Assembly (NCBI RefSeq): GCF_963921235.1
Contig: NC_086097.1
Coordinates: 141,982,001-142,046,000 of the forward strand
Reading direction: 5' to 3'
Length of the DNA: 64,000 nt
From: Mobula hypostoma
Taxonomy: Eukaryota
Positions 6,222-60,636 of the stretch are shown here, one piece after another. The position numbers were made by a program, and so were the translations under genes. The notes under the pieces were generated by a model. The model was not told where the DNA came from. It ran no database searches and was given only the letters and a program-made list of their open reading frames with translations. The stretch's first letter is position 1, and each line of letters starts with the position of its first letter.

Positions 6222-7701
6222 CTACTGGAAGAGACTTCCGGTAGACCTCATGGAGCGAAGTCGTGTTCTTGACTCGCTCCATTACCTCTGAGCTTTATCC
6301 TATGATCAGCTACATTTAAGCTAACTTTTAAGGCACCGACTTTTACAATGCCTTGCAGCGGATTGCTATTATATATTTGGATGTTTTTAAGGTCCGCTAT
6401 GTCTAAGAACGAGAAAGACGGCAAATCTCTGGTTAGACCGAAAGTTACCGACCCCCCTCCGATTGAACCAGTGGTAACTATGCAAGCTGTGTCGGATCTG
6501 ATTCGTGCAGAAATTTCAACTAAACCGCAGAAAATTATCGATGAAATTGATAAAATGAAAACATCTATCACGGAACATCAGACTGCTATATCTAATCTCC
6601 AAGTATCCACGCAACAAAGTGAACTCAAGATGGGGAAAATTGAAGAAACTATTACTGTAATGAAGAAAAAACTTGACTTTCTGACCTTTAAAAATTCTGA
6701 CTTAGAATGCAGAATGCGACGACAGAACATTTGAAGTATTGGTATTCGTGAAGCTGCTGAATCTGATGACCCTATAAAGTTTTTCTCTCAACTTTTAAAA
6801 GATTCATTTCCCACCTTATTTCCTGATCAACCACCACTATTGGATGGGGCTCACAGAGTCCCATTATATTCCCCTAAGTCAGATAAACCTCGGCATGTTA
6901 TTTTACGATTTCATTATTTTCAAGACAAGGAGAAGCTGCTTCGCTTTGCTCGACCTAAAGGTTACATTGATTTCTTGGATCTTTGCTTTCGATTGGTGGA
7001 AGATTTTAGTAAACAGGTTCGTGATCAACGTGTCCGTTACAGATCTGTGATGTCGTAATTCTACAAGATGGATTTAAAACCAGTGTTGCTTTATCTTGCA
7101 CGTTTGAGGATTCGATTGTCCGATGGGGCTTCCCGTTTTTTTGACTCTCCATTGGATGCCCAGAGTTACCTGGATCAACTCTTGCCTTCAACATCTTAAT
7201 CGCACTATTAAATCATCTTTGTTTGATCTCAGGCAGTTAATCTGTTGGGTTTAATTTTTTTTTTTGCTTTATATGAGGGCAGAAAAGTTTTGCCAAACTT
7301 TTTTTTTTAACTGCGTCATTCCTTTCTTCTTCCCTGGGGATTCTGGGTGGCAATTCCCACAGCATCATTTTACGTACATCCCTGGAGGCCTTAAACTTTG
7401 TAGTTTTCAAACGTACTTTTTGTAGTTTTCTTGGCTAGTCTATGCTAATATTTCATTTTCTTGTTTAATTATATGGTCTGTTGTAGGTTAACGGTTTTCT
7501 TTATATGTACCTGTTTTTTCTTTGTATTATATCGTTTTTGTTTTAATCAGTGTACTTTTTTTTATTCCTTTACTGTTTTATAACTTTAACTGATCTTTTT
7601 ATATATACACTTTTTTTTTAGTGAGCGTCTATCGGAAGTCATGGGGGTAGTTCTAGTGCTCGCTTCTTTCTGGCTGGTCTATCTTAGATTTAGCTTTGGG
7701 G

Positions 7702-8564
7702 TGTTACGTACCCCGTAACTGGGTTGCCAAACCAGCAGAAATGGATCACTCAGTTGGAGTCTGGATTACTAGAACCAAGAAAGTTCCATTAAAGAAACAA
7801 GCAACACAGTAATCGAAAGGATAATAAATGCAACAGTTCAGCAATGATAACCACACATGTGCACAGAACCAAGACAACAGCATCAATCAAGCTCTATCGC
7901 GGTCTAGGGGCAAATGACCAAATTTCAAAGTGGCTCAAAGTTCAGTCCAGTTTAGTAGTTCAGTTCGCAGTAATCGTTGCCATGGCGATGGACAACGTGG
8001 GGGGAGAGAGAGGGGGAACAGGAACAACTGATCATTCAGACATGGCTTCACTCACAGACCGGCGATATGGCTCACAAGCAGCTTTTGGGCGGGTCCTTGG
8101 TGATGTCACCTGAGGTCACTGACTGTGACCCCTCCTCCAGATGCAGTCGATCCTCTGCAGTGAACCCGGCACCCAGGCAAGGGCGGACACACACCGGGTT
8201 CCCGCTGATCGTACCTTTCCACCCTGGCCGTTGTCTGATACTTCTCACCGACTCGTGAGAGGCGTACCGCTTCCAGGGTCTCGTTACCTCGGGTGTCGTG
8301 TGTGTCCTGCCTTAGCGAACCGGTCCCTTTTTATCCCCCTGCTGGGGTATCGCCTGTCCATCACTTCAAACAGTTCAAGGTTCAAAGGGGGGAGCCGCTC
8401 CAGACAGCTCTCTCTCCCCCGTCCCTTCATTACACATCTCCAGACGCTGCTCCATTGTTCCTTATCTCTCCTTCCCCTGAGGGCAGGTGGCAGACCACTT
8501 GCTGATGTCACTGATGCTAACCCAGGCCAGCAAACATCTTAATTTTATGTGTATTCTCGTCACA
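7702..8564 (-). repeat. 3' LTR
   Basis: TGTTAC...GTCACA; direct repeat of 11710-12572; adjacent PPT AAAGGGGGGAAG (8565-8576, - strand). Confidence 0.96.
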
Positions 8565-8881
8565 CTTCCCCCCTTTAAGGATTTTTACCGGGAGGTAAAA
8601 ATTACAAACATGAATACATTATTTGATACATACACAAATATACATCTTTATCAGCTATTTGGCTAACACAGCGAGTTTGAAGCTGTCAACACCTTGACAA
8701 ACAGTCATCATATTTTCTGTTCCTTTTACACGTGTTATTAATAATCCCTTAGACCAGGCTCCAACTCAGCGAACTTCATAGTGGCCAAAAACACTGATGA
8801 ATTGCGACCAATGTACCCTCTCATTTGGTTTTGTCCCGGACCACAATAACAAGGGTCGTCCCATTCCGACTCAGTTTTCTC

Positions 8882-11610
8882 TCACAAGGGCTTAGTAGGA
8901 GGGGGACGGGTATTGACCGCAGAGTTATTGCAAAACTTCCTGCAGTACCCCACCATCTCCAAGAGCCTTCTGAGGGCCCTCTTGTCTGTCAGGGTTGGGA
9001 GGTCAGCGATAGCCTGCACTGTAACTTGCATCGCTGCCAGCTGCCCCTGTGTCACCACAATTCCCAGGTAAGTGACCCTCGTGTGGCCGAATTCATTTTT
9101 TTCAAGGTTCACTATCAAGCTGGCTTCAGACAGCTGTATTAAATTGCCAATACACACCTCTGTGTTCATCAGCCCTTTAGTCACTGAATTACTCATTATA
9201 TATCGGTGTTCTTTACTAGGCTGCCCTATTGTAACAGACATCACCCAACGTCCCAGTTCTTTGCATTTCCTCGGGACAATCAAACACACGGGTGCGAGTC
9301 GTTTAATTACTTCTTCTAAAGATTCGCTTTGTTCGGGGATTAAGGGAGAGACTTTATCAGTAGACCTGGCCAAAACAATAGCCTTCTCCCATCTGATCGA
9401 TCCCATACTAATCTTTTCAAAATGTTTTTTTCCTCTTATCAGGGGGCCCCTAGCTTCATTGATTTCCACGCTAACACCGACTAGGTTTGTTAGCATATCA
9501 AAACCCGATGACCGTCTCAGTTCGCGTCGGTCATGATCAATAACATTCTTCCCCCTGGGCAGCCGGTAAATCTCTTTCATGATTCCACCAACTGTTTCCT
9601 TCAGCACCGCAAAATGTCCACCGGGGGGTACCTCGTGGGCCATGTTAAAAACCTCATCCCCATAACTCTTTTGCACCACCCCCCATTCCTCATCTGCGGG
9701 GACTGTACTTGATTTCCCTTTTTTCCTTAGCACTTCCTTCTCCACACAATAGTTTACTAGTTCCCTTGTTAAAGCTGTGTCAGAGAGAGCTGTCTCTGCC
9801 ACAACCATCAGCCCCTCGTCTCGCTCCTGCGTCTGCACAAATTCTTTCCTGGCTACTGCTACGTCCGTCCCAGCTCCCTCACTACCTCTTGTCTCACTAC
9901 ACCCCGTCTCATACAAGGTTGGCAGAAACGTTTCAGCTAAATTCACTATCGCGGGCCCGTGATGAACCTGTGAGTCCATGGGCGGGGCCTCAATGCTGGC
10001 AGGCTGACCTGTCAATCTCACGACTGGGAACACGATTTCTCCGGCGATGTCATTACCGAGCAAGACTTCCACGCCTTTCATCGGTAATTCGGACCTCACC
10101 CCGATCGTGACTAGTCCAGAGACCAGGTTGCTTTGTAAGTGTATCTGGTGCAAAGGGACTGACTCTGTCCCTTCTCCAACACCTTTGACCTCTACCTCCC
10201 CAGTCTGGGTCTCTGAGCTAAACTCTAATACACTCTTCAGTATTAGTGACTGACACGCTCCCGTGTCTCTCCAGATCCGCACTGGAACTGGTTTTAACCC
10301 CTCCTTCACTGACACCAGTCCGGCCGAGATAAACCTCTCGCGCCCTTCCTGGACTTTTTCAGACCTGTCCTTCCCTAGCGGTTCGCTTAACAGCTCGATA
10401 CAGCCATTCAAAATTTCCGCTTTTCCTTTCCCCGTCTCCTTCCTTGGGGCAAAGCACCTGGACGCAAAGTGTCCGACTTTCCCACAATTATAACAGACGA
10501 CCCCAGGAGACTTCCTACCAGACTGCTCCCGGTCTACCTTATCCTTTTCACTAGTCCCCGGCTTACTTTCTGACTTTTCCGGCGGACTCTCCCCGCCGTC
10601 CTGACTACCCTTCTGGTAGCCTTTACTGGGGGCAAACTTCGTTTTATGTGTCAACGTGTACTCATCCGCTAACTTAGCAGTTGCGGCTAACGTGGCTGCC
10701 TCTTTCTCATCGAGGTAGGGTCTCATACCCTCAGGGACACAACCTTTAAACTGCTCAATCAGGATCAGTTGTAGCAGTCTGTCATAATCCCCCTCTACCC
10801 CCTTCGAGGCGCACCAACGCTCACAATATGTCTGCATCTCTCGGGCAAACTCCAAATACGGGCGGTCCCACTGCTTCCTCGCATTCCGGAACCTCTGCCG
10901 GTATGCCTCCGGGACCAACTCATAAATCCTGAGGATGGCCTCTTTCACCACCTCATACCTCTGGGCATCTTCCGCGGACAAAGCTGAGTAAGCTTGTTGG
11001 GCTTTCCCTTTCAGTACACTCTGAAGTAAAACAACCCACTTATCCCTCGGCCAGTCCTGACTTATAGCCACTTTTTCGAAGTGGAGAAAGTACCGATCCA
11101 CGTCGGTATCGTCAAATGGGGGAACCAGCCTAACCTCCTGGGTCGCCTGGAACCCTCCACCTTGGTTCGGCACGAGCCCCTGCTCGGCCCTTATCTTTAA
11201 CTTCTCCAGCTCAAATTCCCTTTCCCTCTGTTTCCCTCTCTCTTCTCGCTCCCATTCTCCTCTCTCTCTAACTGTTTCTCTCTCTCTTTCTCTTCTCTCT
11301 CCCTTTCTAACTGCTTCTCTTCGTGTTCTAACTGCCGTACCCGGAACTCGTGCTCAAGTCTCAGTTTTTCAAGCTGCACCTGTACTGCGTCTCCAGCAGG
11401 TTTTTCAATAGACACCACCCCCAGCTCACCTTGGGGAAACACACCTTTAGATACATAGTGCTCTACAATAGCTCTGTGTATCTCCTCTCTCCTCATTGTC
11501 GACTTCACCTTAGCAAGATTCAACCGTTTGGCCACAGCTATCAATTCCGATTTCCTGGCATCCTCTAATGCCTCCAAGGTCGGCGCCTTTATAAATTCCT
11601 CAGCCTCCAT
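8882..11610 (-). CDS. Gag (coiled coil, SCAN-like capsid, CCHC knuckle)-protease with truncated integrase/RT remnants; one -1 frame break near 11230-11260
   Basis: ORFs 11197-11610 and 8882-11173; YELVPEAYRQRFR, LILIEQF, CYNCGKVGHFASRC, RDTGACQSL, AHEVPPGGHF, LIVNLEKNEFGHTRVTYLG, LRRLLEMVGYCRKF. Confidence 0.85.
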
Positions 11611-11686
11611 TTCTGCTGTTTGTCTTTTCTTTCTTTCGGGAATTTTAACCCAATCAATTTACTCCGTCCCAAATTTAGCGTTCAAA

Positions 11687-11705
11687 ATCCCGGACGAGAA
11701 CCCCA
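11687..11705 (-). promoter_or_regulatory. primer binding site, tRNA-Pro
   Basis: TGGGGTTCTCGTCCGGGAT versus canonical tRNA-Pro PBS TGGGGGCTCGTCCGGGAT, 4 nt inside the 5' LTR boundary. Confidence 0.88.
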
Positions 11706-11709
11706 CTTA

Positions 11710-12572
11710 TGTTACGTACCCCGTAACTGGGTTGCCAAACCAGCAGAAATGGATCACTCAGTTGGAGTCTGGATTACTAGAACCAAGAAAGTTCCATTAA
11801 AGAAACAAGCAACACAGTAATCGAAAGGATAATAAATGCAACAGTTCAGCAATGATAACCACACATGCGCACAGAACCAAGACAACAGCATCAATCAAGC
11901 TCTATCGCGGTCTAGGGGCAAATGACCAAATTTCAAAGTGACTCAAAGTTCAGTCCAGTTTAGTAGTTCAGTTCGCAGTAATTGTTGCCATGGCGATGGA
12001 CAACGTGGGGGGAGAGAGAGGGGGAACAGGAACAACTGATCATTCAGACACGGCTTCACTCACAGACTGGCGATATGGCTCACAAGCAGCTTTTGGGCGG
12101 GTCCTTGGTGATGTCACCTGAGGTCACCGACTGTGACCCCTCCTCCAGATGCGGTCGATCCTCTGCAGTGAACCCGGCACCCAGGCAAGGACGGACACAC
12201 ACCGGGTTCCCGCTGATCGTACCTTTCCACCCTGGCCGTTGTCTGGTACTTCTCACCGACTCGTGAGAGGCGTACCGCTTCCAGGGTCTCGTTACCTCGG
12301 GTGTCGTGTGTGTCCTGCCTTAGCGAACCGGTCCCTTTTTATCCCCCTGCTGGGGTATCGCCTGTCCATCACTTCGAACGGTTCAAGGTTCAAAGGGGGG
12401 AGCCGCTCCAGACAGCTCTCTCTCCCCCGTCCCTTCATTACACATCTCCAGACGCTGCTCCATTGTTCCTTATCTCTCCTTCCCCTGAGGGCAGGTGGCA
12501 GACCACTTGCTGATGTCACTGATGCTAACCCAGGCCAGCAAACATCTTAATTTTATGTGTATTCTCGTCACA
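11710..12572 (-). repeat. 5' LTR
   Basis: 11 substitutions relative to the 3' LTR by eye count, all transitions. Confidence 0.96.
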
Positions 12573-15500
12573 GGGGTTACGGGGTGGGGGTGGGGGGGCT
12601 TCACTTTTTAGTTTTTCTTTCTTCTTGGGCTACTTATATTACCGAAGTATTGGTCGCGTTCTCTTTCCCGTTATCTCTTGTTTTTTCTGTTCCCTTTCTG
12701 AGTTCATGGGTCGAACCTATTGTCAATCCTCCTTTATTTGAGGGTTGACTTTAGGAATTATGGAGTCTACTATTAATTTTGTCTCTTGGAATACTAACGG
12801 TCTTAATCATCCAATAAAAAGGAAAAAAATCTTTAAAGTATTCCGGAGACTTAAAGCACATATTCTATTTTTACAAGAGACCCATGTGCGGAGGGGGGAC
12901 AGATTACGTTTTTTTAAGTTCTGGAAGGATCAACACTTCCATTCGAATTCCAACGCCAAAATTCGAGGAGTTTCTATTTTTATAGATCCCTCAATCACTT
13001 TTGTACAACACGATATTATTTCTGATCCGAATGGTAGATTTCTATTGGTTAGTGGTTTACTCTTTAATAAAAAGGTAGTTTTGGTTAACGTCTATGCTCC
13101 TAACCTGGACTGTCCGGAATTTTATAAATCATTATTTAATTTGTTCCCGAATTTGAATGAGTTTTCACTAATCTGGGGCGGAGCTCTTAATACTTGTTTA
13201 TCCCCATTATTGGACCGTTCGGCTCCTTTACGGATTCTACCCAATAAATCTGCAACCTTGATTAATTCATTTCTTTCAGATTCCGGGTCAACGGACATTT
13301 AGCGTTTTTTGCATCCTCAGGAAAAAGATTTTTCTTTTTTTTCACATGTTCATCATTCCTATTCAAGAATTGATTATTTTCTTATTGACTCTCGTCTTAT
13401 TTCTTCAGTGGTTAAATGTGAATATAACTCTATAACCATTTTGGATCATGCTCCACTTAAGCTTTCTATTAAAATATTGGCCAATACACAAAATAATAGA
13501 CAGTGGTGTTTTAACTCGCTGTTGCTTCAGGACTCTGATTTTGTTAACTTTATGAATGAACAGATTGATCTCTTTTTTACAATCAACTGTACAGAGGATA
13601 TATCCATGAACACCCTTTGGGATACTTTTAAAGCTTATATTCGTGGTCAGATCATCTCCTATTCTGCTGCTTTGAGGAAAAGGTTGAAGGAGGAGGAGCT
13701 GGTTATTGTGGTCAAGATTAAGGAAATTGATAAGAAATATGCTGCAGCTCCCTCTGAGAAGCTGTATAAACAAAGAACTGAACTTCAAATGGAACACAGT
13801 TTATTACTTTCGTCCTCTATTGCAAATCAATTAATGAAAACGAAGCGAATTTTATATACATAGTGATAAAGTTGGTAAACTGTTGGCTAACCAGTTGAAG
13901 ACTAACTATACTATATTTCAAATTAATCAGATTTATAATCAAAAAGATCAACTGATATCTGATCAAGCTGAGATTAATCAATCCTTTTTTGACTTTTATT
14001 CCTCCTTATATCAATCAGAGTTTCCACGAGACTCTAAACATATGTATGACTTTTTAGATAACCTAGATTTCCCTAAGATTTCACACGATATATCTTTTAT
14101 GTTAGACACTTCCTTTACCACTGATGAGATTAAGAATGTTATTTTTTCTATGAACCCTGGGAAAGCTCCTGGTCCTGATGGGTTTACCACGGAATGTTAT
14201 AAATTTTTTGCATCCTCATTAATCCCTTGGTTATTCAGGGTTCTGGAGGCCTCATTAAAACTTGGTAAACTTTCCGAATCCTTTTATTGAGCACCGATCT
14301 CTTTAATATTAAGGAAGGATAAAGACCTTGCTCAATGTGCATCTTATAGACCAATATCTTTATTAAATGTTGACTCTAAAATTTTTTCTAAGTTATTAGT
14401 AAACAGATTAGAAAAAGCCATTATTTTTGAAAGAATTTTTGCATCCCCATTTAATAATGAAATAGGTCTATATGAAGCACAGTCAGTAGTCAGTTAAAGA
14501 ATCTTTAAGCATTTCCAGCATATATGGAGAAAGCAATTTTTCAAATTTTTTATAAAATCCTACAGAATAACCATCTAGTCCAGGAGCTTTACCAGACTGC
14601 ATTGAAAAAATAACTTACTGAATTTCATTTTCAGTAATAGGAGCATCAAAAGTTTGTTGATCTTCAACAGAAATTCGAGAAAAATCGATCTTTTGTAAAA
14701 AGGCATTCATTTTAGAAGAATCAACTGGAAACTGAGATTTATAAAGTTCAATGTAAAAGTCTTGAAAAATTTTATTAATGTCTTCAAAATTACATGCTGT
14801 ACTACTGTCTGCCTTATGAATTTTAAAAATTTGTCTTTTGGCTCTAGCTTCTTTTAATTGAGATGCTAATAGCTTATTATTTTTATCTCCAAACACATGA
14901 AATTGACGTTTCAATTTAAGCAAATTTCTTTCAATAGGATAAGTTAATAATAATTTATATTGTGATTGGAGTTCAACCCTTTGTTTGAATAAATCAATAT
15001 TAGGAGAGATTGCATAAATATTATCCAAGTCTTTAATTTGTTTTGAAATCTTATCTAACTCTGCTTTTGGCTGTTTCTTAAGCTTAGCTAAATAGCAGCT
15101 TATCTGACCATGCAAATATGCTTTAAATGTATCCCATATAATCACTTTTGACACATCTCCCGCATTATTAAAAAGAAAGAAATCTTTTATCTGAGTCTCA
15201 ATAAATTTGACAAAGTCCGAACTTTGTAATAAATTTTCTGGAAACGCCAAGGCAAATTTGCAATAATGACATCATTCAATTCCAAAGCTAAGCTTAAAGG
15301 TGCATGATCTGAGAAAACGATAGCATCGTATTCACATTTCTGGACTTTGGACAGAGGTCGGAGATCGGCTATAAAATAATTGATTCTCGAATATTTTTTG
15401 TGTACATGTGGAAAAAAAAAGCATGATCTCTGTCATTAGGATGTAAATGTCTCCAAACTTCAACCAGGTCATAATCAATTAAAAAAGAGTTAATAAGTGA

Positions 15501-18535: not shown

Positions 18536-19493
18536 TATGTTGGACTTTAATGTTGTTGGTAATGGGTCAGGATTTAGTAAACAGACTACCTAGTTGCGCA
18601 GAGTTCAATGAAGGGTAGATATCTCATCATCTGTAGAAGAGGATTAAGTGGTTGGGGTGTATCCTTAATGGAGAAATGCACAGATCTTTGATTGCCAGCT
18701 ACCTGCTAATATTCTCCACTGAATTCTAGTTACACAGACACTCCTTATCTTCAAGAATACCAATGTGATCTGATTCTCCAGCTAAGTGTTCATATGGCTA
18801 TTGATTTACATCTTTCCTCTTCCCTTATCCCACTGTTGCTCGGAAACTTGTCCGAGTTTTTGGAGCTCTTTTTGTGAAAAAATTCCTCTTCCCCCATTAC
18901 TCTTCCTGAAACACATTCCTAAAGACTCGACTCTCTTGACTGGGGTTTCAGTTTTGCTACTTCCAATCCAACTGTTACAAAGTGCAGTTATTTATTTCAA
19001 AGAAATCCCTCTTCATTGTTAGGGCAATATTCCTCCTGTGTTGGTGCCAGTTATTCTGGTATTAAACTGCAACGATGGAGACAGTATTCAGGACTTTGAA
19101 ATGGGCATTACCTCTTCTATATCAGGAGGAGAGGTCATTAACAATTGATAAGGATTGAATTCCCATGAAGAACTTCACATAATACACAGTTTAGTCTCCC
19201 ATTTGGGGAATGGCCACTTTGCAGCGATAGTAATCAGCTCACCAGCCCACTTACCCAGCAGATATTAAACCCTATATGAGGCGATATGTTGCTTTATGTT
19301 TGGTTTCATTGCTGATATATAAAAGAATACATTTATATGATGCTCTGTTTATTTATTTTATTTGTTGCCATTCCATTGAACCTTAACATACTGTTATTTA
19401 GTCTATCTCAGTTCTTAGTTTTGAGATGAAAGACCAGAAAAAAGGAAAAATTACATTTAGTGTTAAACCATAAAGACAGTTCTATTCCTACTA

Positions 19494-21090
19494 TAGTGGT
19501 GCTAGAAAGTTTGTGAATCCTGTAGAATTTTCTCTATTTCTGAATAAATATTACCTAAAATGTGATTAGATCTTCACTTATCCTAAAACTAGATAAAGAG
19601 AACCCAGTTAAATAAATAACACAAAAAACATTATACTTGTTCATTTATTGTTGAGAAAAATGATCCAATATTACTTGTATTGTTTGGAAAAGGTATGTGA
19701 ACTTTTGCTTTCAGTAACTGGTGTGACCCCCTTGTACAGCAATAACTTCAACCAAACATTTCCGTTAACTGTTGATCAGCCCTGCACTCAGCTTGGAGAA
19801 ATTTGAGGCCATTCCTTCTTACAAAATTGCTTCAACTCTGGAATGTTGCCGGGCTTCCTTGCATGAATTAATTGCATCAGGTCCTTCCATAAGGATTAAG
19901 ATCAGGACTTTGACTCGGCCAGTGCAAAGCACGAATTTTCTGTTTTTTTAAACCATTCTATTGTTGATTTACTCTTGTCTTTCAGATCATTGTCTTTTTG
20001 CATTATTCAATTTCTCTTAAGCTTCAGGTGTCGCACTGCTACCCTGCCATTCTTCTGTAAAATGTCTTGATACAATTTTGAATTTATTGTTCCCTCAACA
20101 ATTGCAAGCTGTCCAGGCCCTGAGGCAGCAAAGCAGCCCCAAACCATGATGCTCCTTCCACCATACTTCACAGTTGGGATGAGGTTTTGGTGTTGGTCTG
20201 CAGTGCCCTTTTCCCTCCAAACATAGCATTGTGTGCATTTCTGCAAAAAGTTCAAATTTTGTCTCATCTGTTCACAAAACATTGTCTCAGAAGCGTTGTG
20301 GAACATCCAGGTGGTCTTTTGCAAACCTGAGATGTGCAGTGATTGGGTTTTTTTGGAGAGCAGTGGTTTCCTCTGTGGTGTCCTTCCATGAACACCATTC
20401 TTGTTTAGTGTTTTTATTATAGTGGGCACATAAACAGAGACCTTAGCAAGTTCTAGAGATTTCTGCAGGTCTTTTGTTGTTACCCTTGGGTTCTTTTTCA
20501 TCTCCTTTAGCATTGCACATTGTGCTCTTGGTGTGATCTTTGCAGGATACCCACTCCTAGGGAGGGTAGCAACAGTACTGAGTTTCCTCCATTTGTAGAT
20601 AATGCCTCTTACTGTGGACTGATGAACCTTCCGGTATTTAGAAATGCTTTTGTTGCCTTTTCCAGCTTCATGCATCTCTACAATTTTTCTTCTAAGATTG
20701 TTTGAAGCATGGTGCTCGTAAACAAATCTTTCTTGAGAATAGCAGCTCTGTGAGTAACCTGCCTTTGTGTGTCTTTTTTTAACAGGGCAGGGCACCTTTC
20801 CAGCCCACACCTCCAATCTCATCTCATTGATTGGAACACGTGACTCCAAATAGCTTTTGTAGAAGGCATTACCCCAGAAGCTCACATACTTTTTCCAACA
20901 AATACATGTAATATTGGATCATTTTTCTTAATAAATAAATGAACAGGTATAATGTTTTTGTGTTATTTATTTAATTGGATTCTCTTTATCTAGTTTTATT
21001 CCTTGTGTAAAGATCTGATCACATTTTGGGTCATATTTATACAGAAATAGAGAAAATTTTGTAGGGTTCACAAACTTTCTAGCACTACTG
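19494..21090 (-). mobile_element. Tc1/mariner DNA transposon, full-length, inactive
   Basis: TA on both flanks; about 210-bp TIRs ((C/T)AGTRGTGCTAGAAAGTTTGTGAA); transposase about 20710-19711 with frameshifts (RSGYPAKIT, PTVKYGGRSIMVWGCF). Confidence 0.92.
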
Positions 21091-21869
21091 TATGTTATTT
21101 AACCGCTTCTTACTCAATTATCAGACATGCTGCAAAAACTGATATTGTCTGCATAGACTTCTATCTCATTTATAAATATAATGCATTTAATCTTACAGTA
21201 ATAATTTGCTTTTGTATAGTGTGTTCATCATATCATAGCTCCTGAATGTGTTTTTAAGAGAATTATACAGTGAAATTCAACAATGAAGCCCTTTTTTCCA
21301 TTTGTGATGTTGCCAGAGTAAGCATGTATTTGAGTCAAGAGACAAATAGCACAGAAACATACCCTTAAGCCAATCGAGTCTGTGCCTTTCACCAATTTAA
21401 ACTAATTCTACATTGATCCCATTTGTTTTATTCTCCACACATTCCCATTAACTCCCAGGTTTCTATCACTCACCTCTGCATTAGAGGCAATTTATGACAG
21501 CCAGTTAACTTGCCAACTACGCTGCTTTTGGAATGTGTGACAAAACTATGGCTTCACGAGATAATCCACATAGAATGTGGCCTTTGATTCACTAAATTCT
21601 GGCAGCTGCTCATGGAATAAATAATTGTTTCACTCTAATCCTTGGTTTTTCCCTGTAGTTTGGAAAATTATTTTCCCATGTGTGTTTATCCAGTTTCCTT
21701 TTGAAAGCTTGCTTGTTCTTGTTTTCAGTGTCCTTAATGGCAACGTGTATTAAATCGTAATGACATCATGTTTATTCTAATGAAATGGGCCCCACACCCT
21801 CTGATTTATGCTCTTCGTTTTAATTGTGTATCCCCCAGTCCTTGAATATTCCACTGTTTCCTGCCAGAG

Positions 21870-26761: not shown

Positions 26762-27049
26762 GGAATGGTTTTGAAAGAATGGCAATGAAGTAACTGTTTC
26801 TGCTGGCTAAAGGATTGATGATGAGAGGATTTAAGCTAACTGGCAAAATTCAGAAGTGATGAGAAATGTATTTTGCTTGGAGTGTATGCTGTACTACTGT
26901 TAGACAAGAATGGTGGAAGCAGAAGGAATTAAGTATCTATGACCACTGGATAAAGAATCCAAGGCTGTAGCTGGGTAAGAGGATTATTAGATTGCCTTTT
27001 CAAATAAACTGCACAGATGCTGTGGATGAAATGTAGTGATGTGAGGTAA

Positions 27050-28385
27050 GGGACATTTGGAAAGCGGTGAAATGATCGGACAAAGTCAGCATGGATTTGT
27101 GAAAGGAAAATCATGTCTGACGAATCTCATAGAATTTTTTGAGGATGTAACTAGTAGAGTGGATAGGGGAGAACCAGTGGATGTGGTATATTTGGATTTT
27201 CAAAAGGCTTTTGACAAGGTCCCACACAGGAGATTAGTGTGCAAACTTAAAGCACACGGTATTGGGGGTAAGGTATTGGTGTGGGTGGAGAATTGGTTAG
27301 CAGACAGGAAGCAAAGAGTGGGAATAAACGGGACCTTTTCAGAATGGCAGGCGGTGACTAGTGGGGTACCACAAGGCTCAGTGCTGGGACCCCAGTTGTG
27401 TACAATATATATTAATGACTTGGATGAGGGAATTAAATGCAGCATCTCCAAGTTTGCGGATGACACGAAGCTGGGTGGCAGTGTTAGCAGTGAGGAGGAT
27501 GCTAAGAGGATGCAGGGTGACTTGGATAGGTTGGGTGAGTGGGCAAATTCATGGCAGATGCAATTTAATGTGGATAAATGTGAAGTTATCCACTTTGGTG
27601 GCAAAAATAGGAAAACAGATTATTATCAGAATGGTGGCCGATTAGGAAAAGGGGAGGTGCAACGAGACCTGGGTGTCATTATACACCAGTCATTGAAAGT
27701 GGGCATGCAGGTACAGCAGGCGGTGAAAAAGGCGAATGGTATGCTGCCATTTATAGCGAGAGGATTCGAGTACAGGAGCAGGGACGTACTACTGCAGTTG
27801 TACAAGGCCTTGGTGAGACCACACCTGGAGTATTGTGTGCAGTTTTGGTCCCCTAATCTGAGGAAAGACATCTTTGCCATAGAGGGAGTACAAAGAAGGT
27901 TCACCAGATTGATTCCTGGGATGGCGGGACTTTCATATGAAGAAAGACTGGATGAATTGGGCTTGTACTCGTTGGAATTTAGAAGATTGAGGGGGGATCT
28001 GATTGAAACGTATAAGATCCTAAAGGGATTGGACAGGCTAGATGCAGGAAGATTGTTCCCGATGTTGGGGAAGTCCAGAACGAGGGGTCACAGTTTGAGG
28101 ATAGAGGGGAAGCCTTTTAGGACCGAGATTAGGAAAAACTTCTTCACACGGAGAGTGGTGAATCTGTGGAATTCTCTGTCACAGGAAACTGTTGAGGCCA
28201 GTTCATTGGCTATATTTAAGAGGCAGTTAGCTATGGCCCTTGTGGCTATGGGGGTCAGGGGGTATGGAGGGAAGGCTGGGGCGGGGTTCTGAGTTGGATG
28301 ATCAACCATGATCATAATAAATGGCGGTGCAGGCTCGAAGGGCCGAATGGCCTACTCCTGCACCTATTTTCTATGTTTCTATGTA
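27050..28385 (+). mobile_element. CR1-clade LINE, young, 5'-truncated, uninterrupted RT frame
   Basis: 411-aa ORF 27057-28292 (QHGF, YLDFQKAFDKV, GVPQGSVLGP, KFADD); (TTCTATGT)n tail. Confidence 0.95.
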
Positions 28386-29830
28386 CTTGCAGTTGTGCTT
28401 GTGTTATTAGAGAAACGATGTCCTTAAATATTGTGAAAAATAGTATTTGCTATTTTTTTTATTTGATATGTAGAGCAATGGTTACTCAGCAATTCAATAT
28501 ACCTCTAACAGCTATCTTACTGCAGGACTGCAAATTTATCCCAGAATCCAAAAACATTAGTTGGAAATCCAGGAGTTTTATAGGTTGATCAGACATTGGT
28601 GATATCAATTTTTGTGTCTCTTTCTCACAGCTAGTGTATGACAACTTGCATTCTTTACAGCAACATGTACTTATTTCATTATGACCCTTATCGTCTTCAA
28701 TTTTAGCAATTAAAATTCTTAGTTTTGATGTAGTTTTATTTTTATTGAACTGTCAATCAAATCATTAGACTGATCAAAGGCCTTCTGCAGACATTATTAA
28801 CACTTGTCAGTTTTTTGTTAAGGCATTTGTGAGGGAGTTGGTGCCTAGAAAGCTTTACATCCTATGTGAAAGGTCAGTTTGGAATTACACCTTCACAAAT
28901 TAATGACTGAAGCCCTGGGAGGATTCTTAACAACTATGTCAAGCCTTGTACAAACAAAGGAACCTTGTCCAATGCTGAATCCACCAAAAGTTATTTAATG
29001 ACTCCTTGGCAAAATGTTTAATTCCCATTGTTCACAAAGAAACACATTTAAAAACATACTTTTCCAAATAAAACAGAACTGACTATAGCATTTTCAATCA
29101 TAAAAGTCCATTCAACAGGCATAAAGCTAAAAATTGCTATTAATAGAATGTGAAGAATTCAAGACAATTTTAAATAAGCTTTTCCTTTTAGTCTTAAAGT
29201 TAGAAACACCATGAAAGGTACTGAATTGGTATTAATATCCAGATATCCCATTTCAGTATCCATAGTGTAGGTGATTGCAATCATAAACTACTTTGTAGTT
29301 CCATATTATGTTTCTGTTATTTTAGGGAGCTGTTCTATTGTGCAAAGAATTTATCAGAATATTTATTATCAGTTCTTCAGGATTACGAGATATGGAAAAT
29401 AATGCAAACCTTGCCAATGTCACATCTTAACAAACAAAAAACTTTGATATTGAGGGCTTTGGGGAATAGAAATTGAAATGGAATTAACAGGGCCTGTTTA
29501 TTTAAAAAGAGCCACCACAAACCCAATGGGCTACACATGTGCCTGTACTATACAATTCTGTTAATCTCTGCCTGAACCTGTACATTAAGAATGACTAATT
29601 GAGAATGTGGGAACAAAAATCCATGAATTTATATTGAATTGTGTTGTGCTATTCAGACACACACGATTCCACCTATTACTTTGAATCAAACGTTGGCCTT
29701 CTGAAGGGAATGAATACAAAATTTATTTTTAAAGTCAGTTAATTATACTTTTTTGTGACATCTTTAGTATGTGCTTATCAATCACAGGAATACAGCTAAC
29801 ATTTTTCTTCTTCCCGTGTTTCTCCCTCAG

Positions 29831-30658
29831 TACACAGTGGAGACTCCACCTGACCTCAGTGAGCCCAAACTTATCAACCCTGACCCAGAAATTATGGATC
29901 CAACATCAAAGTTTGGTTTGATTAGTGATGCCATCACAGGAAATGCCTACGTTCCAATGTTACCTGAAGAGATGGAACGCATCAATCAGAGATTGCGCAG
30001 GCTATGGCAGAGATCCAAGCCGGGGAAGGTTAAGCCACTTCCTGTTGACTCTCACAAGGAAGCAATCATCTCTGCCATTGAGGAAAACCGCATTGTGGTC
30101 ATAGCTGGAGCAACTGGATGTGGAAAGACCACCAGGATCCCACAGTTCATACTGGAGAAATTCATAACTGATAACCGAGGAGCCCACTGTAACATTCTGG
30201 TAACTCAGCCCCGGAGGATCAGTGCTGTGTCAGTGGGGCAAAGGGTAGCCTATGAAATGGGACCAGCCCTCAAGAAAAACGTGGGCTACCAGGTACGGTT
30301 GGAGAGCATGTTGCCTCCACGAGGAGGGGCATTGCTGTTCTGTACTGTTGGTATTCTCTTGAAGAAGCTGCAAGGGAATCCCTCACTAGAAGGTATTAGT
30401 CACGTCATTGTGGATGAAGTCCATGAGCGTGATGTCAACACCGATTTCCTGCTCATCTTGCTGAAGAATGTAATGGATGCTAACCCCAAGCTGAAGATCA
30501 TCCTGATGAGTGCCACCAGTGACATTGAGCGGATATCAGATTACTATGGGAATTGCCCTGTAGTGACTGTGCCAGGGTTCATGTACCCTGTGAAGGATTA
30601 TTATCTAGAAGATATCCTACCAATGCTTGGACAAAAGGAAACAATTCAACTCAGTCAA
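29831..30658 (+). CDS. DHX30: DHX30 large exon, RecA1 helicase domain
   Basis: cctcag|TAC...CAA|gtaagt; 828 bp; Walker [26 protein letters not shown]. Confidence 0.97.
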
Positions 30659-30809
30659 GTAAGTGGTTAAGTTTTTTAAAAATTGCATTGATGCAGCTTG
30701 GTTCCTTTTTCCCCAAACACGTCATTGTTAATGGAAGTGAAGTGACCTGTTTATTTGTAGAAGTGATGGAAATATTCAGTAAATATGTTTTTTGGGTACT
30801 GTTGATTTA

Positions 30810-30940
30810 AGGAGGATAGCGGGCCAGAACATGAGAAAAAATGAGGATAGGAATTAAAACGGTTGGCCACTGGGAAATCATGCTTTTTGCAAATGATGTG
30901 GTGGTGCTCAAGAATGTGGTTTCCCAATTTATGTTGTGTC
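30810..30940 (-). mobile_element. Penelope GIY-YIG fragment (inverted)
   Basis: GPLYIGETQHKLGNHILEH...FPVANRFN. Confidence 0.8.
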
Positions 30941-31636
30941 TCACCAATATAGAGAGGACCGGATACATTGTGTCTCACCAATGTAGAGAGGACCAGATAT
31001 GTTGGGTCTCACCAATGTAGAGAGGAAGAGATACGTTGTGTCTCACCAATGTAGAGAGGACCGGATACGTTGTGTCTCACCAATGTAGAGAGGACCGGAT
31101 ACATTGGGTCTCACCAATGTAGAGAGGATCAGATAGGTTGTGTCTCACCAATGTAGAGAGGACCGGATAGGTCACGTCTCACCAGTATAGAGAGGACCGG
31201 ATATGTTGTGTCTCACCAATATAGAGAGGACCGGATACGTTGTGTCTCACCAATGTAGAGAGGACCGGATGCATTGTGTCTCACCAGTATAGAGAGGACT
31301 GGATACATTGGGTCTCACCAATGTAGAGAGGACCGGATACGTTGGGTCTCACCAATGTAGAGAGGATCGGATAGGTCGTGTCTCACCAATATAGAGAGGA
31401 CCAGATATGTTGTGTCTCAGCAATGTAGAGAGGACCGGATACGTTGGGTCTCACCAATATAGAGAGGACCGGATACGTTGGGTCTCACCAATATAGAGAG
31501 GACCGGATACGTTGTGTCTCACCAATGTAGAGAGGACCAGATACGTTGTGGCTCACCAATATAGAGAGGACCGGATACATTGTGTCTCACCAGTATAGAG
31601 AGGACCGGGTACGTTGGGTCTCAGCAATGTAGAGGA
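30933..31636. repeat. 34-bp minisatellite, about 20.5 copies
   Basis: Consensus GTTGTGTCTCACCAATGTAGAGAGGACCGGATAC; TCACCA register recurs every 34 nt from 30941 to 31621. Confidence 0.97.
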
Positions 31637-31649
31637 GGCCACAACTGGA

Positions 31650-32220
31650 GCAGAACTTCCCGATGGCCAACAATTTTAATTCCTATTCCCATTCCCATTC
31701 TGACAAGTTGGTCCTTGACCTCCTCTTCTGCCACGATGAGGCCATTCTCAGGGTGGAGGAGGAACACCTCATATTCTGCCTAGTTCTGTCTAGGTAGCTT
31801 CCAACCTGATGGCATGAGCATCAATTTTTCTTTCTAGTAATTCCACCCCCCTTCTTCTCTTCCCTCCTCTGGCCTCTTACCTCTTCTCCTCACCTGCCCA
31901 TCACCTCCCCCAGTGCCCCTCCTCCGTCCCTTTCTCCCAAGGTCCACTCTCCTCTTCTATCATTCCTTCTTTTTCTGCTCTTTGCCTTTTCCACTTTCCA
32001 GCTTCTTACCACATCCCCTCTCCCCCACCGACCTGGCTTCATCTGTTGCTCTCTAGCTTGTCCTACTTCTCCACCCCCCCCACACCTTTTTGTTTTAGCA
32101 TCTTCCCCCTTCCTTTCCAGTGCAGATAAAAGGGCTCGTCCCAAAACATTGACTATTTATACAATTTCATAGATGCTTCTTGGCCTGCTGAGTTCATCCA
32201 GCATTATGTGTATGTTGCAA
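31650..32220 (+). mobile_element. Penelope endonuclease C-terminus, 3'UTR and terminal repeat with decayed hammerhead
   Basis: FPMANNFNSYSHSHSD...RVEEEHLIFCL...GSFQPDGM; pyrimidine-rich UTR; GATGCTTCTTGGCCTGCTGAGTTC. Confidence 0.8.
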
Positions 32221-42036: not shown

Positions 42037-42821
42037 CAATTGCATGAAAAAGTTTGTGAACCCTTTGCAATTACCTGGTTTTCTGCATTAGTTACTCATA
42101 AAATGTGATCTGATCTTCATCTAAGTCACAATAATACACAAACCCTATCTGCCTAAACTAATAACACACAAACAGTTGTACTTCACTGAGTACGCCATTT
42201 AAACAGTCACAGTCTAGATTCAAAAAGGTATGTAAACTTCTGGGGTAATGCCTTCTACAAAAGGTATTTGGAGTCAAGTGTTCCAGTCAATGAAATGAGA
42301 TTGGAGGTGTGGGTTGTAGAGGTGCCCTGCCAGATAAAAAAAAAGATACACAAAGGCGGGTTACTGACAGAGACTGCTCTTCTCAAGAAAGATCTGTTTA
42401 TGTGCACCATGCCTTAAACTAAACAGCTTTCAGAGGACCTTAGAAGAAGAATTGTAGAGATACATGAAGCTGGAAAAGGCTACAAAAGCATTTCTAAAGA
42501 CGTGAGTGTTTATCAGTAAGAGAAATTGTTTACAAATAGAAGAAATTCAGTATTGTTGCTACTCTTCCTAGGAGTGGGCGTCTTGCAAAGATCACACCAA
42601 GAGCACAATGTGCAATACTGAACGAGGTGAAAAAGAACCCAAGGATAACAGCAAAGGAGCTGCAGAAATCTCTAGCACTTGCTAAAGTCTCTGTTCATGT
42701 GTCCACTATAAGAAAAACACTGAACAAGGATGGTGTTCATAGAAGGACACCATGGAGGAAACCACTGCTCTCCATAAACAAACATTGCTGCACATCTCAG
42801 ATTTGCAAAAGACCACCTGGA
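42037..42821 (+). mobile_element. Tc1/mariner 5' half
   Basis: TA then CAATTGCATGAAAAAGTTTGTGAACC; MP*TKQLSEDLRRRIVE...KNPRITAKELQKSL; related to 19494-21090. Confidence 0.85.
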
Positions 42822-59410: not shown

Positions 59411-60279
59411 CATAGAAACATAGAAACATAGAAAATAGGTGCAGGAGTAGGCCATTCGGCCCTTCGAGCCTGCACCGCCATTTATTATGATCATGGCTGA
59501 TCATCCAACTCAGAACCCAGCCTTCCCTCCATACCCCCTGACCCCTGTAGCCACAAGGGCCATATCTAACTTCCTTTTAAACATAGCTAATGAACTGGCC
59601 TCAACAGTTTGCTGTGGCAGAGAATTCCACAGATTCACCACTCTCTGTGTGAAGAAGTTTTTCCTAACCTCGGTCCTAAAAGGCTTCCCCTCTATCCTCA
59701 AACTGTGACCCCTCGTTCTAGACCTCCCCAACATCGGGAACAATCTTCCTGCATCTAGCCTGTCCAATCCCTTTAGGATCTTATACGTTTCAATCAGATC
59801 CCCCCTCAATCTTCTAAATTCCAACGAGTACAAGCCCAGTTCATCCAGTCTTTCTTCATATGAAAGACCTGCCATCCCAGGAATCAATCTGGTGAACCTT
59901 CTTTGTACTCCCTCTATGGCAAAGATGTCTTTCCTCAGATTAGGGGACCAAAACTGCACACAATACTCCAGGTGTGGTCTCACCAAGGCCTTGTACAACT
60001 GCAGTAGTACCTCCCTGCTCCTGTACTCGAATCCTCTCGCTATAAATGCCAGCATACCGTTCGCCTTTTTCACCGCCTGCTGTACCTGCATGCCCACTTT
60101 CAATGACTGGTGTATAATGACACCCAGGTCTCGTTGCACCTCCCCTTTTCCTAATCGGCCACCATTCAGATAATAATCTGTTTTCCTATTTTTGCCACCA
60201 AAGTGGATAACTTCACATTTATCCACATTAAATTGCATCTGCCATGAGTTTGCCCACTCACCCAACCTATCCAAGTCAC
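59411..60279 (-). mobile_element. CR1 LINE, young, same subfamily as 27050-28385
   Basis: 254-aa open frame 59510-60274; (TTCTATGT)n tail; about 97% identical by eye. Confidence 0.95.
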
Positions 60280-60636
60280 AAACATGAGGGGAACTTCCTC
60301 ACTCAGGGTGGAGAGTGTGGCTACTAGGGCAAGTGGTGGATAAGGGGTTGATTTCAACATTTAAGAGAAATTTGGATAGGTACATGGATGGGAGGGGTAT
60401 GGAGGGCTATGATCTGGGTGTGGGTCAATGGGACTAGGTAGATTAATAGCTTGGCCCAGACTAGATGGGCTGAAGGACCTGCTTCCAGGTACTTGTCAGC
60501 ATGGTTTTCTGTGTGGGAATTCAGGTCTCAGATTTGATTGATATTTTTGAAAAGGTCCTACATGATAGATTGGTCCAGAAGCTTAGAACAGATAGGATCT
60601 GGGGTGAGGTAGCTAGATAGATACAAAAATCATATA

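What the first reader, a model, noticed from the sequence alone, without database searches (positions are those of the whole stretch)
8882..11173. Non-autonomous Gmr1-like element with intact Gag-protease and a collapsed but open pol
Seen: the internal region is only 3.1 kb. SCAN-like Gag, CCHC knuckle and DTG protease look intact. They are followed by short remnants in PR-IN-RT order (integrase HH part AHEVPPGGHF, RT end LIVNLEKNEF..TYLG, LRRLLEMVGYCRKF), with no YxDD, DDE or RNase H core, yet the frame stays open for 763 codons. The LTRs are about 98.7% identical, so the element probably moved recently in this form. Known: PR-IN-RT order defines the Gmr1 clade, the proposed source of the vertebrate SCAN domain. 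Inference: a capsid-and-protease-supplying parasite family borrowing RT/IN in trans, with selection on the open frame.
Basis: partly seen in the sequence, partly recalled or inferred. Interest (0 to 1): 0.7.

Follow-up and report, generated by a model that had tools for sequence, protein, structure and literature searches.

The report
Helper-dependent ray retrotransposon, eroded in frame
This is one decayed copy of a devil-ray retrotransposon family that kept its capsid and protease but lost its copying enzymes through a series of deletions that all left the reading frame open, which suggests that being translated to the end matters more to it than what the leftover tail encodes.

Summary
The element is real: 863-bp LTRs (11 mismatches), 4-bp target duplication, tRNA-Pro-type PBS, PPT, SCAN capsid, zinc knuckle, DTG protease, then IN, RT and RNase H remnants in Gmr order. 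The deletions are not private. Annotated proteins of Mobula hypostoma and M. birostris share them (IN-core junction 19 of 19 that reach it, RT junction 15 of 15), five read as one 939-1004-aa ORF, and an older intermediate shows stepwise erosion. Eight deletions (5 to 289 codons) all keep the frame. Gag-protease is conserved, while the tail changes fast (RT remnant 21 versus 2 changes; shared variants 29/294 versus 9/377) without a fixed stop. Best reading: a semi-autonomous Gag-protease family with selection on translation of the tail, not on its sequence. Plant Sabrina_SA/TR-GAG and mouse IAP 1-delta-1 are precedents. New variant of a known kind.

The parts
7698..7701 (.). target-site duplication, left copy (GGGG)
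   Evidence: flanks of both LTRs
7702..8564 (-). 3' LTR, 863 bp, TG...CA ends
   Evidence: 11 mismatches to the 5' LTR, 8 at CpG
8565..8576 (-). polypurine tract abutting the 3' LTR
8689..8769 (-). last ~30 codons of the ancestral pol, broken into three pieces in shifted frames, at and beyond the family stop
   Evidence: the family proteins share the shifted end
8738..8740 (-). stop codon at which 11 of 22 annotated family proteins end; 173 nt before the 3' LTR
8741..8881 (-). RT-connection end and RNase H scrap, joined across an 86-codon deletion near 8849; in frame with the main ORF but behind this copy's early stop
8882..8884 (-). premature stop of this copy, 48 codons before the family stop
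8885..9193 (-). RT remnant: degenerate YxDD site (9143-9154), 18-codon deletion near 9137, palm end and thumb
   Evidence: 68 of 112 identical to full RT P0307
9194..9523 (-). integrase C-terminal end, IN-RT linker and RT start; 128-codon RT deletion at 9194, 7-codon deletion near 9491
   Evidence: match to P0147, P0252, P0305
9524..10000 (-). post-protease linker and integrase zinc-finger remnant (HH at 9614-9640; CC and catalytic core removed by a 289-codon deletion at 9524); deletions of 12, 7 and 5 codons
10001..10360 (-). retropepsin-type protease, RDTGA at 10256-10270
10454..10495 (-). CCHC zinc knuckle
   Evidence: (PF00098)
10643..10912 (-). SCAN-type capsid C-terminal domain
   Evidence: PF02023, residues 148-237
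11230..11340 (-). purine-rich Glu/Arg repeat of variable length among copies; holds this copy's frame change
11270..11610 (-). gag N-terminus from the first ATG (11610), in a different frame from the rest in this copy
11687..11705 (-). primer-binding site of tRNA-Pro type, slightly degenerate in this copy
   Evidence: compared with the MLV PBS probe printed in PMC4587795
11710..12572 (-). 5' LTR
12573..12576 (.). target-site duplication, right copy (GGGG)

Best explanation
The window holds a decayed copy of a semi-autonomous Gmr-type LTR retrotransposon family of Mobula rays. Shown: family members carry LTRs, PBS and PPT and encode one polyprotein with capsid, nucleocapsid and protease plus a ~420-codon tail of pol debris that lacks every catalytic centre of IN, RT and RNase H; the debris arose by successive in-frame deletions; Gag-protease changes slowly and the tail fast. 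Inferred: the family's RNA is packaged by its own Gag (so Gag-protease is under selection in cis or among close kin), co-assembles with the polyprotein of a related full-pol element, and uses that element's RT and integrase. Inferred, less firmly: the tail is kept open because ribosomes must run to near the 3' LTR (a stop right after the protease would lengthen the untranslated end from ~170 nt by ~1270 nt, inviting decay of the RNA, or translation is coupled to packaging), so selection acts on translation and not on the encoded residues.
For: Shared junctions in two species: IN core 19 of 19 and RT front 15 of 15 annotated proteins that reach them, out of 22 family proteins examined; five single ORFs of 939-1004 aa. 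Intermediate P0147 shares four deletions and lacks three later ones and sits basal to the family (100/97 support). Eight deletions of 12, 7, 5, 289, 7, 128, 18 and 86 codons keep one frame; at one in three each, 1.5e-4; the two other frames hold 34 and 32 stops in 371 codons. Frame-free chaining put all blocks of 16 bits or more upstream of the family stop in the ORF frame, while the pieces at and beyond the stop lie in shifted frames. Relative rates at sites where two outgroups agree: gag-protease 7 vs 12 and 7 vs 8 (no excess), IN remnant 17 vs 5 (p 0.017), RT remnant 21 vs 2 (p 7e-5); second outgroup pair 1 vs 9, 14 vs 4, 16 vs 5. Among nine copies, shared amino-acid variants 9 in 377 gag-protease sites vs 29 in 294 tail sites (p 3.5e-5); singletons 36 vs 40 (p 0.11). 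Listed segregating DNA variants: 6 synonymous to 2 non-synonymous in gag-protease, 2 to 9 in the tail (p 0.024). RT-remnant stem 0.13+0.22 changes per site against under 0.05 for gag-protease; with 0.044-0.054 stops per non-synonymous change, several stops were expected and none was fixed. In unannotated contigs the listed coding-region indels are 27 nt and a compensated pair, against 8 of 9 LTR/UTR indels that are not multiples of three.
Against: No intact helper was found: best full-length hit about 40% identical among 7881 candidates; only fragments P0127 (IN start) and P0307 (RT-RNase H) are close, and no LTR or PBS of theirs could be compared. 11 of 22 annotated proteins end early and P0123 and P0124 share one frameshift that drops roughly the last 100 codons, so a sub-lineage with a shorter frame probably spread. 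RefSeq proteins are biased towards long ORFs. The DNA variant count rests on 40 of 347 rows and 12 of 24 indel rows shown; one of the four listed low-depth skips inside the main ORF outside the repeat (167 nt) is not a multiple of three. Expression is not shown (no run on record as RNA). The decay or packaging mechanism has no direct evidence here. The one-in-three prior and the independence of the deletions are assumptions.
Confidence: 0.68

Rival explanations
1. The tail is kept because the remnant protein itself does something (for example the RT thumb or IN zinc-finger piece docks onto the helper's enzymes or RNA), as proposed for the IAP 1-delta-1 fusion protein.
For: The RT end and thumb (about 95 codons) survived all deletions and stay 68 of 112 identical to P0307; reviews report a cis effect of the IAP fusion protein.
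Against: The remnants change much faster than in the full-pol sister (21 vs 2, 17 vs 5), carry three to four times more shared variants per site, keep losing pieces (9, 4, 6, 18 codons among copies), and two copies share loss of the thumb.
Confidence: 0.13
2. Gag-protease only looks selected because it is refreshed by recombination with the full-pol partner, and the open tail is luck plus annotation bias.
For: Indels are mosaic among copies (P0123, P0124, P0136, P0143), which shows recombination; gag-protease trees barely separate collapsed from uncollapsed Mobula rows; proteins come from ORF-biased annotation.
Against: Collapsed copies share their own protease marks, such as a one-codon deletion absent from P0127, P0129, P0130. 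Recombination in gag cannot explain eight in-frame deletions and no fixed stop over a long tail branch. Unannotated contigs bridge the same junctions in runs of three organisms.
Confidence: 0.11
3. The polyprotein is maintained for the host (as zebrafish Bik-1/Bik-2 Gag), or as a dominant-negative brake on the full-pol family.
For: Precedent in fish (PMC12067270); several copies are annotated as isoforms of host genes; one haplotype dominates a run guessed to be RNA.
Against: Copies are dispersed over many scaffolds with LTRs and decay individually; this copy is broken; no fixed orthologous locus was seen.
Confidence: 0.06
4. The deletions happened once in a dead copy that was then spread by segmental duplication or gene conversion, not by retrotransposition.
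For: None specific.
Against: Own target duplication inside a LINE, different scaffolds, stepwise subfamilies in two species, very high contig depth with LTRs 3.4-fold over the interior (depth is not a copy number).
Confidence: 0.02

Closest known systems
Gmr1-like (Gmr) Ty3/gypsy retrotransposons
   Same: SCAN-type capsid, PR-IN-RT-RNase H order, gag and pol in one ORF (passages of bioRxiv 10.1101/2025.03.03.638093 and PMC11117352); nearest full-length relatives have that order.
   Different: Polyprotein 939-1004 aa instead of about 1500-1630 aa; no catalytic IN, RT or RNase H centre.
Wheat RLG_Sabrina_SA, RLG_Quinta and plant TR-GAG elements
   Same: Multi-copy non-autonomous LTR elements that keep Gag or Gag-protease and are thought to use a partner's RT and IN (passages of PMC9744471, PMC11302176, PMC13570524).
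   Different: Vertebrate host, Gmr clade; pol is not simply absent but survives as an in-frame translated tail of eroded pieces with preserved intermediates; partner not identified here.
Mouse IAP 1-delta-1
   Same: Non-autonomous subtype whose deletion makes an in-frame gag-pol fusion reported to aid its own transposition in cis (passages of PMC6466679, PMC7411935; the primary paper was not held).
   Different: IAP is a class II ERV with one 1.9-kb deletion that removes part of gag; here gag and protease are whole and there are eight stepwise deletions shared across two species.
Zebrafish Bik-1/Bik-2 (BHIKHARI)
   Same: Fish non-autonomous LTR families encoding Gag, needing a partner (passages of PMC12067270).
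   Different: ERV lineage, no pol remnants, shown host function; none shown here.
[quoted passage not shown]
   Same: Selection for an open frame over junk sequence (only the titles of two such papers were seen, in the reference list of PMC4395149).
   Different: Those are RNA-virus replicons; this is a germline retrotransposon family.

Membership tests
Gmr1-like clade | SCAN-type capsid domain | tested here: met
   PF02023 E 6.9e-13, above cut-off
Gmr1-like clade | PR-IN-RT-RNase H order | tested here: met
   Remnants are colinear with full-length relatives in which IN motifs precede YxDD
Gmr1-like clade | gag and pol in one ORF | tested here: met
   Met by five family proteins; this copy is broken
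Gmr1-like clade | RT phylogeny with named Gmr1 reference elements | tested here: inconclusive
   RT remnant groups with SCAN-bearing, IN-before-RT elements, but no named Gmr1 reference was in the tree
Non-autonomous LTR retrotransposon family | No functional RT or integrase | tested here: met
   IN core, RT front and RNase H core deleted, YxDD degenerate
Non-autonomous LTR retrotransposon family | Many dispersed copies share the defect | tested here: met
   19 of 19 and 15 of 15 junctions, many scaffolds, two species
Non-autonomous LTR retrotransposon family | Cis signals kept (LTR ends, PBS, PPT, target duplication) | tested here: met
   Seen in this copy; not visible for the other copies, for which only proteins were held
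Non-autonomous LTR retrotransposon family | Autonomous partner with matching LTR ends and PBS | not testable with these tools
   No genome held; only protein fragments P0127, P0307 of a close full-pol lineage
Semi-autonomous Gag-protease elements (Sabrina_SA / TR-GAG type) | Intact Gag (and protease) ORF | tested here: met
   Family proteins; conserved relative to tail. Not met by this copy
Semi-autonomous Gag-protease elements (Sabrina_SA / TR-GAG type) | RT, IN and RNase H coding sequence absent | tested here: not met
   About 420 codons of in-frame remnants remain; works like them, not filed as TR-GAG
IAP 1-delta-1 type | Class II ERV with gag-truncating deletion | tested here: not met
   Gmr-type element, gag whole
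IAP 1-delta-1 type | Translated fusion aids transposition in cis | not testable with these tools
   Only indirect selection signals

The most novel reading that the evidence does not exclude
A vertebrate Gmr family in which selection on protein sequence (Gag-protease) and selection on translation alone (a neutral, eroding but never closed tail) can be separated, with intermediates preserved in two species: an endogenous counterpart of defective-interfering RNAs that need an open frame but not its product, and direct evolutionary evidence that Ty3/gypsy Gag acts in cis. Other ray Gmr lineages (P0152, P0157) may have collapsed the same way independently.
Probability: 0.45. Interest if true: 0.68.

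Novelty: new variant of a known kind. Interest (0 to 1): 0.52.

Why it matters
Non-autonomous LTR elements that keep Gag are documented mainly in plants, plus IAP 1-delta-1 and Bik in vertebrates. Whether LTR-element proteins act in cis is described as unsettled (passages of PMC13558583). A family whose Gag-protease stays constrained although it cannot copy itself, and whose dead pol is eroded only in frame, gives a natural series in which cis-preference and RNA-surveillance constraints can be measured from copy populations alone. It also shows that SCAN-bearing Gag can persist and be spliced into host gene models without pol, the kind of step thought to precede SCAN capture. For annotation, many Mobula RefSeq 'uncharacterized' proteins and some named isoforms are this element.

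Tried and rejected
No genome held, so no direct copy mining. A first cheap-gap alignment suggested many small integrase islands in the middle of the tail; frame-free chaining gave chance islands of up to 17 bits in six shuffles, and closer relatives showed the middle is one continuous IN-end/linker/RT-start block, so those islands were dropped and the count is eight deletions. PDB sequence search of the protease: nothing significant. No AATAAA or ATTAAA in the LTR on the element strand. No RNA holder listed; run X6 is only guessed to be RNA, so its coverage and its dominant P0122-like haplotype are not used as evidence of expression. Contig depths are not copy numbers. The gag frame change could not be checked in reads (repeat skipped). 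Three look-ups of earlier scan findings returned nothing. Dating: 11 differences give 0.64% per LTR; at the epaulette-shark rate of 7e-10 per generation (abstract of PMC10587355) that would be millions of generations even after removing CpG sites, but the rate for rays is unknown, so no age is claimed beyond 'not shown to be recent'. Literature searches for a prior description (Gmr1 + retrotransposon; Mobula + genome + transposable elements + LTR; SCAN domain + Gmr1-like + retrotransposon) listed none on this family, judged from listings; Repbase, Dfam, subscription papers and supplements were not searched.

Full report
Observation. The element lies on the minus strand between two 863-bp LTRs (7702-8564, 11710-12572) that differ at 11 of 862 compared positions, with GGGG on both sides, a polypurine tract at 8565-8576 and a 3145-bp interior. 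The primer-binding site resembles the MLV proline-tRNA site printed in PMC4587795 (passages; window text). It sits between ORF1-like and ORF2-like remains of a LINE (the LINE label is from my own knowledge of these motifs). One frame is open for 823 codons and carries SCAN and a zinc knuckle, a retropepsin-like protease and the quoted pol motifs.

Position 11173 is a GTG inside gag. The first ATG is at 11610, and the N-terminal part that matches full-length relatives is in another frame; the change lies in the purine-rich repeat. The ORF also stops 48 codons before the family's stop. So this copy, as assembled, does not encode the family polyprotein. Its listed private coding differences are 9 non-synonymous to 1 synonymous (from the 40 of 347 rows shown), as in neutral decay. 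Eight of 11 LTR differences are CpG transitions; with the very low shark mutation rate (abstract of PMC10587355) 98.7% does not show a recent insertion.

What was lost. Full-length relatives of 1442 aa or more are at best about 40% identical (210 hits among 7881 candidates) and have integrase before RT. Closer ray proteins define the map: deletions of 12, 7 and 5 codons after the protease, 289 codons from the CC of the zinc finger through the integrase core, 7 codons, 128 codons from the front of RT, 18 codons just after the YxDD position, and 86 codons of RNase H. The YxDD position is present but degenerate. An earlier reading of many tiny integrase islands was wrong and dropped.

It is a family. 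A tail search gave 13 hits among 8000 scored candidates, nine from Mobula hypostoma; cluster look-ups and two more searches added others. Of 22 collapsed-type proteins tabulated (19 M. hypostoma, 3 M. birostris), all 19 that reach the integrase junction and all 15 that reach the RT junction carry them; 11 end at the same stop; five run from the ATG to that stop as one ORF of 939-1004 aa; six start at internal methionines; 11 end early. They lie on many scaffolds. P0147 (M. birostris) shares the 5-codon, integrase, RT and RNase H deletions but keeps the segments lost in the 12-, second 7- and 18-codon deletions and still reads YIGD; it branches below the family and above the full RT fragment P0307. 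Unannotated contigs of three organisms cover the element in all 30 bins, and among the 32 pieces listed, six of the eight junctions are bridged by at least one.

Selection differs along the ORF. Against Mobula full-pol-type fragments and two outgroups, the window lineage shows no excess change in gag-protease (7 vs 12 with P0127, 7 vs 8 with P0129) but does in the integrase remnant (17 vs 5) and RT remnant (21 vs 2); a second outgroup pair agrees. Among nine copies (the window and eight that span both regions), variants shared by two or more copies number 9 in 377 gag-protease sites and 29 in 294 tail sites, while singletons are not significantly different (36, 40). Listed segregating DNA variants give 6 synonymous to 2 non-synonymous in gag-protease and 2 to 9 in the tail; the neutral expectation is about 30% synonymous. 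So the tail's residues look unconstrained.

Yet the frame stayed open. All eight deletions are in frame (1.5e-4 at one in three each), although the other frames are full of stops (34 and 32 in 371 codons). The RT-remnant stem is about 0.35 changes per site; scaled to the tail and at about 0.05 stops per non-synonymous change, my estimate is four to eight expected stops, and none was fixed. Frameshifts were fixed only in the last ~30 ancestral codons, at and beyond the family stop. In contigs, listed coding indels are 27 nt and a compensated pair, and listed skips inside the main ORF are 54, 174, 162 and 167 nt, while 8 of 9 LTR/UTR indels are not triplets (half of the indel rows were not shown). 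Against this: annotation favours long ORFs, half of the proteins end early, and P0123 and P0124 share a frameshift that removes roughly the last 100 codons, so the constraint is not absolute.

Mechanism. Shown: structure, sharing, stepwise erosion, contrasting rates. Inferred: Gag-protease is useful to the RNA that encodes it, the enzymes come from a related full-pol element (fragments P0127 and P0307 show such a lineage existed in Mobula; gag 59 of 68 and RT remnant 68 of 112 identical), and the tail is kept open for translation's sake, since the family stop is 173 nt from the LTR whereas a stop after the protease would add about 1270 untranslated nucleotides. That long untranslated ends trigger decay is from my own knowledge, not tested here. 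Rivals are a residual protein role, refreshment of gag by recombination plus chance, host co-option, and spread by duplication.

Comparison. The Gmr1-like order and SCAN link are stated in bioRxiv 10.1101/2025.03.03.638093 (passages), the single ORF of 1506-1634 aa in PMC11117352 (passages and table). Gag-protease semi-autonomous families are known in plants (passages of PMC9744471, PMC11302176, PMC13570524), in-frame gag-pol fusion with a cis effect in mouse IAP 1-delta-1 (passages of PMC6466679, PMC7411935), Gag-only families in zebrafish (passages of PMC12067270), and translation-dependent defective viral RNAs (reference titles only). Cis-preference of LTR elements is presented as lineage-dependent in PMC13558583 (passages). 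Searches listed no description of this family; repeat libraries, subscription papers and supplements were not seen and may hold it.

Verdict. A real, well-supported new variant of a known kind: a semi-autonomous Gmr-type family of Mobula rays whose pol was eroded in frame. The window copy itself is a decayed member. Interest 0.52.

Noticed in passing
P0157 (M. hypostoma), P0152, P0158, P0131, P0132 (Hypanus sabinus): Other ray Gmr-type proteins with different in-frame gaps in integrase or a degenerate open tail; could be independent collapses or gene-model introns.
   Followed up: partly
P0122, P0140, P0145, P0307, P0306: Element-derived proteins are annotated as isoforms of host genes (MACC1, UBE2G2, PPM1Lb, HSPB1-associated protein, TMEM38A-type names), suggesting the elements are spliced into host gene models.
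   Followed up: no
window 11230-11340: The Glu/Arg-rich repeat in gag varies from almost absent to about 100 codons among copies, in frame.
   Followed up: partly
run X6 on window 8676-11709: One haplotype matching the P0122-like subfamily dominates a run guessed to be RNA; not evidence of expression.
   Followed up: partly
window 6306-7190 and 12742-14290: Host LINE (ORF1-like and endonuclease/RT ORF2-like remains) split by the insertion in its inter-ORF spacer at a G run.
   Followed up: partly
window 29768-30670: Large exon-like ORF of a DEAH-box helicase on the + strand (PF00270); the element is upstream or intronic and antisense to it.
   Followed up: no
window 30798-31743: 34-bp tandem repeat array of about 28 units.
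   Followed up: no
window 27045-28384 and 59418-60298: Two 97%-alike LINE RT fragments in opposite orientation, one with a 415-aa open frame.
   Followed up: no
window 19492-21092 and 42049-42778: Tc1/mariner-like transposase remnant with inverted repeats and a second related copy (label from my own knowledge).
   Followed up: no
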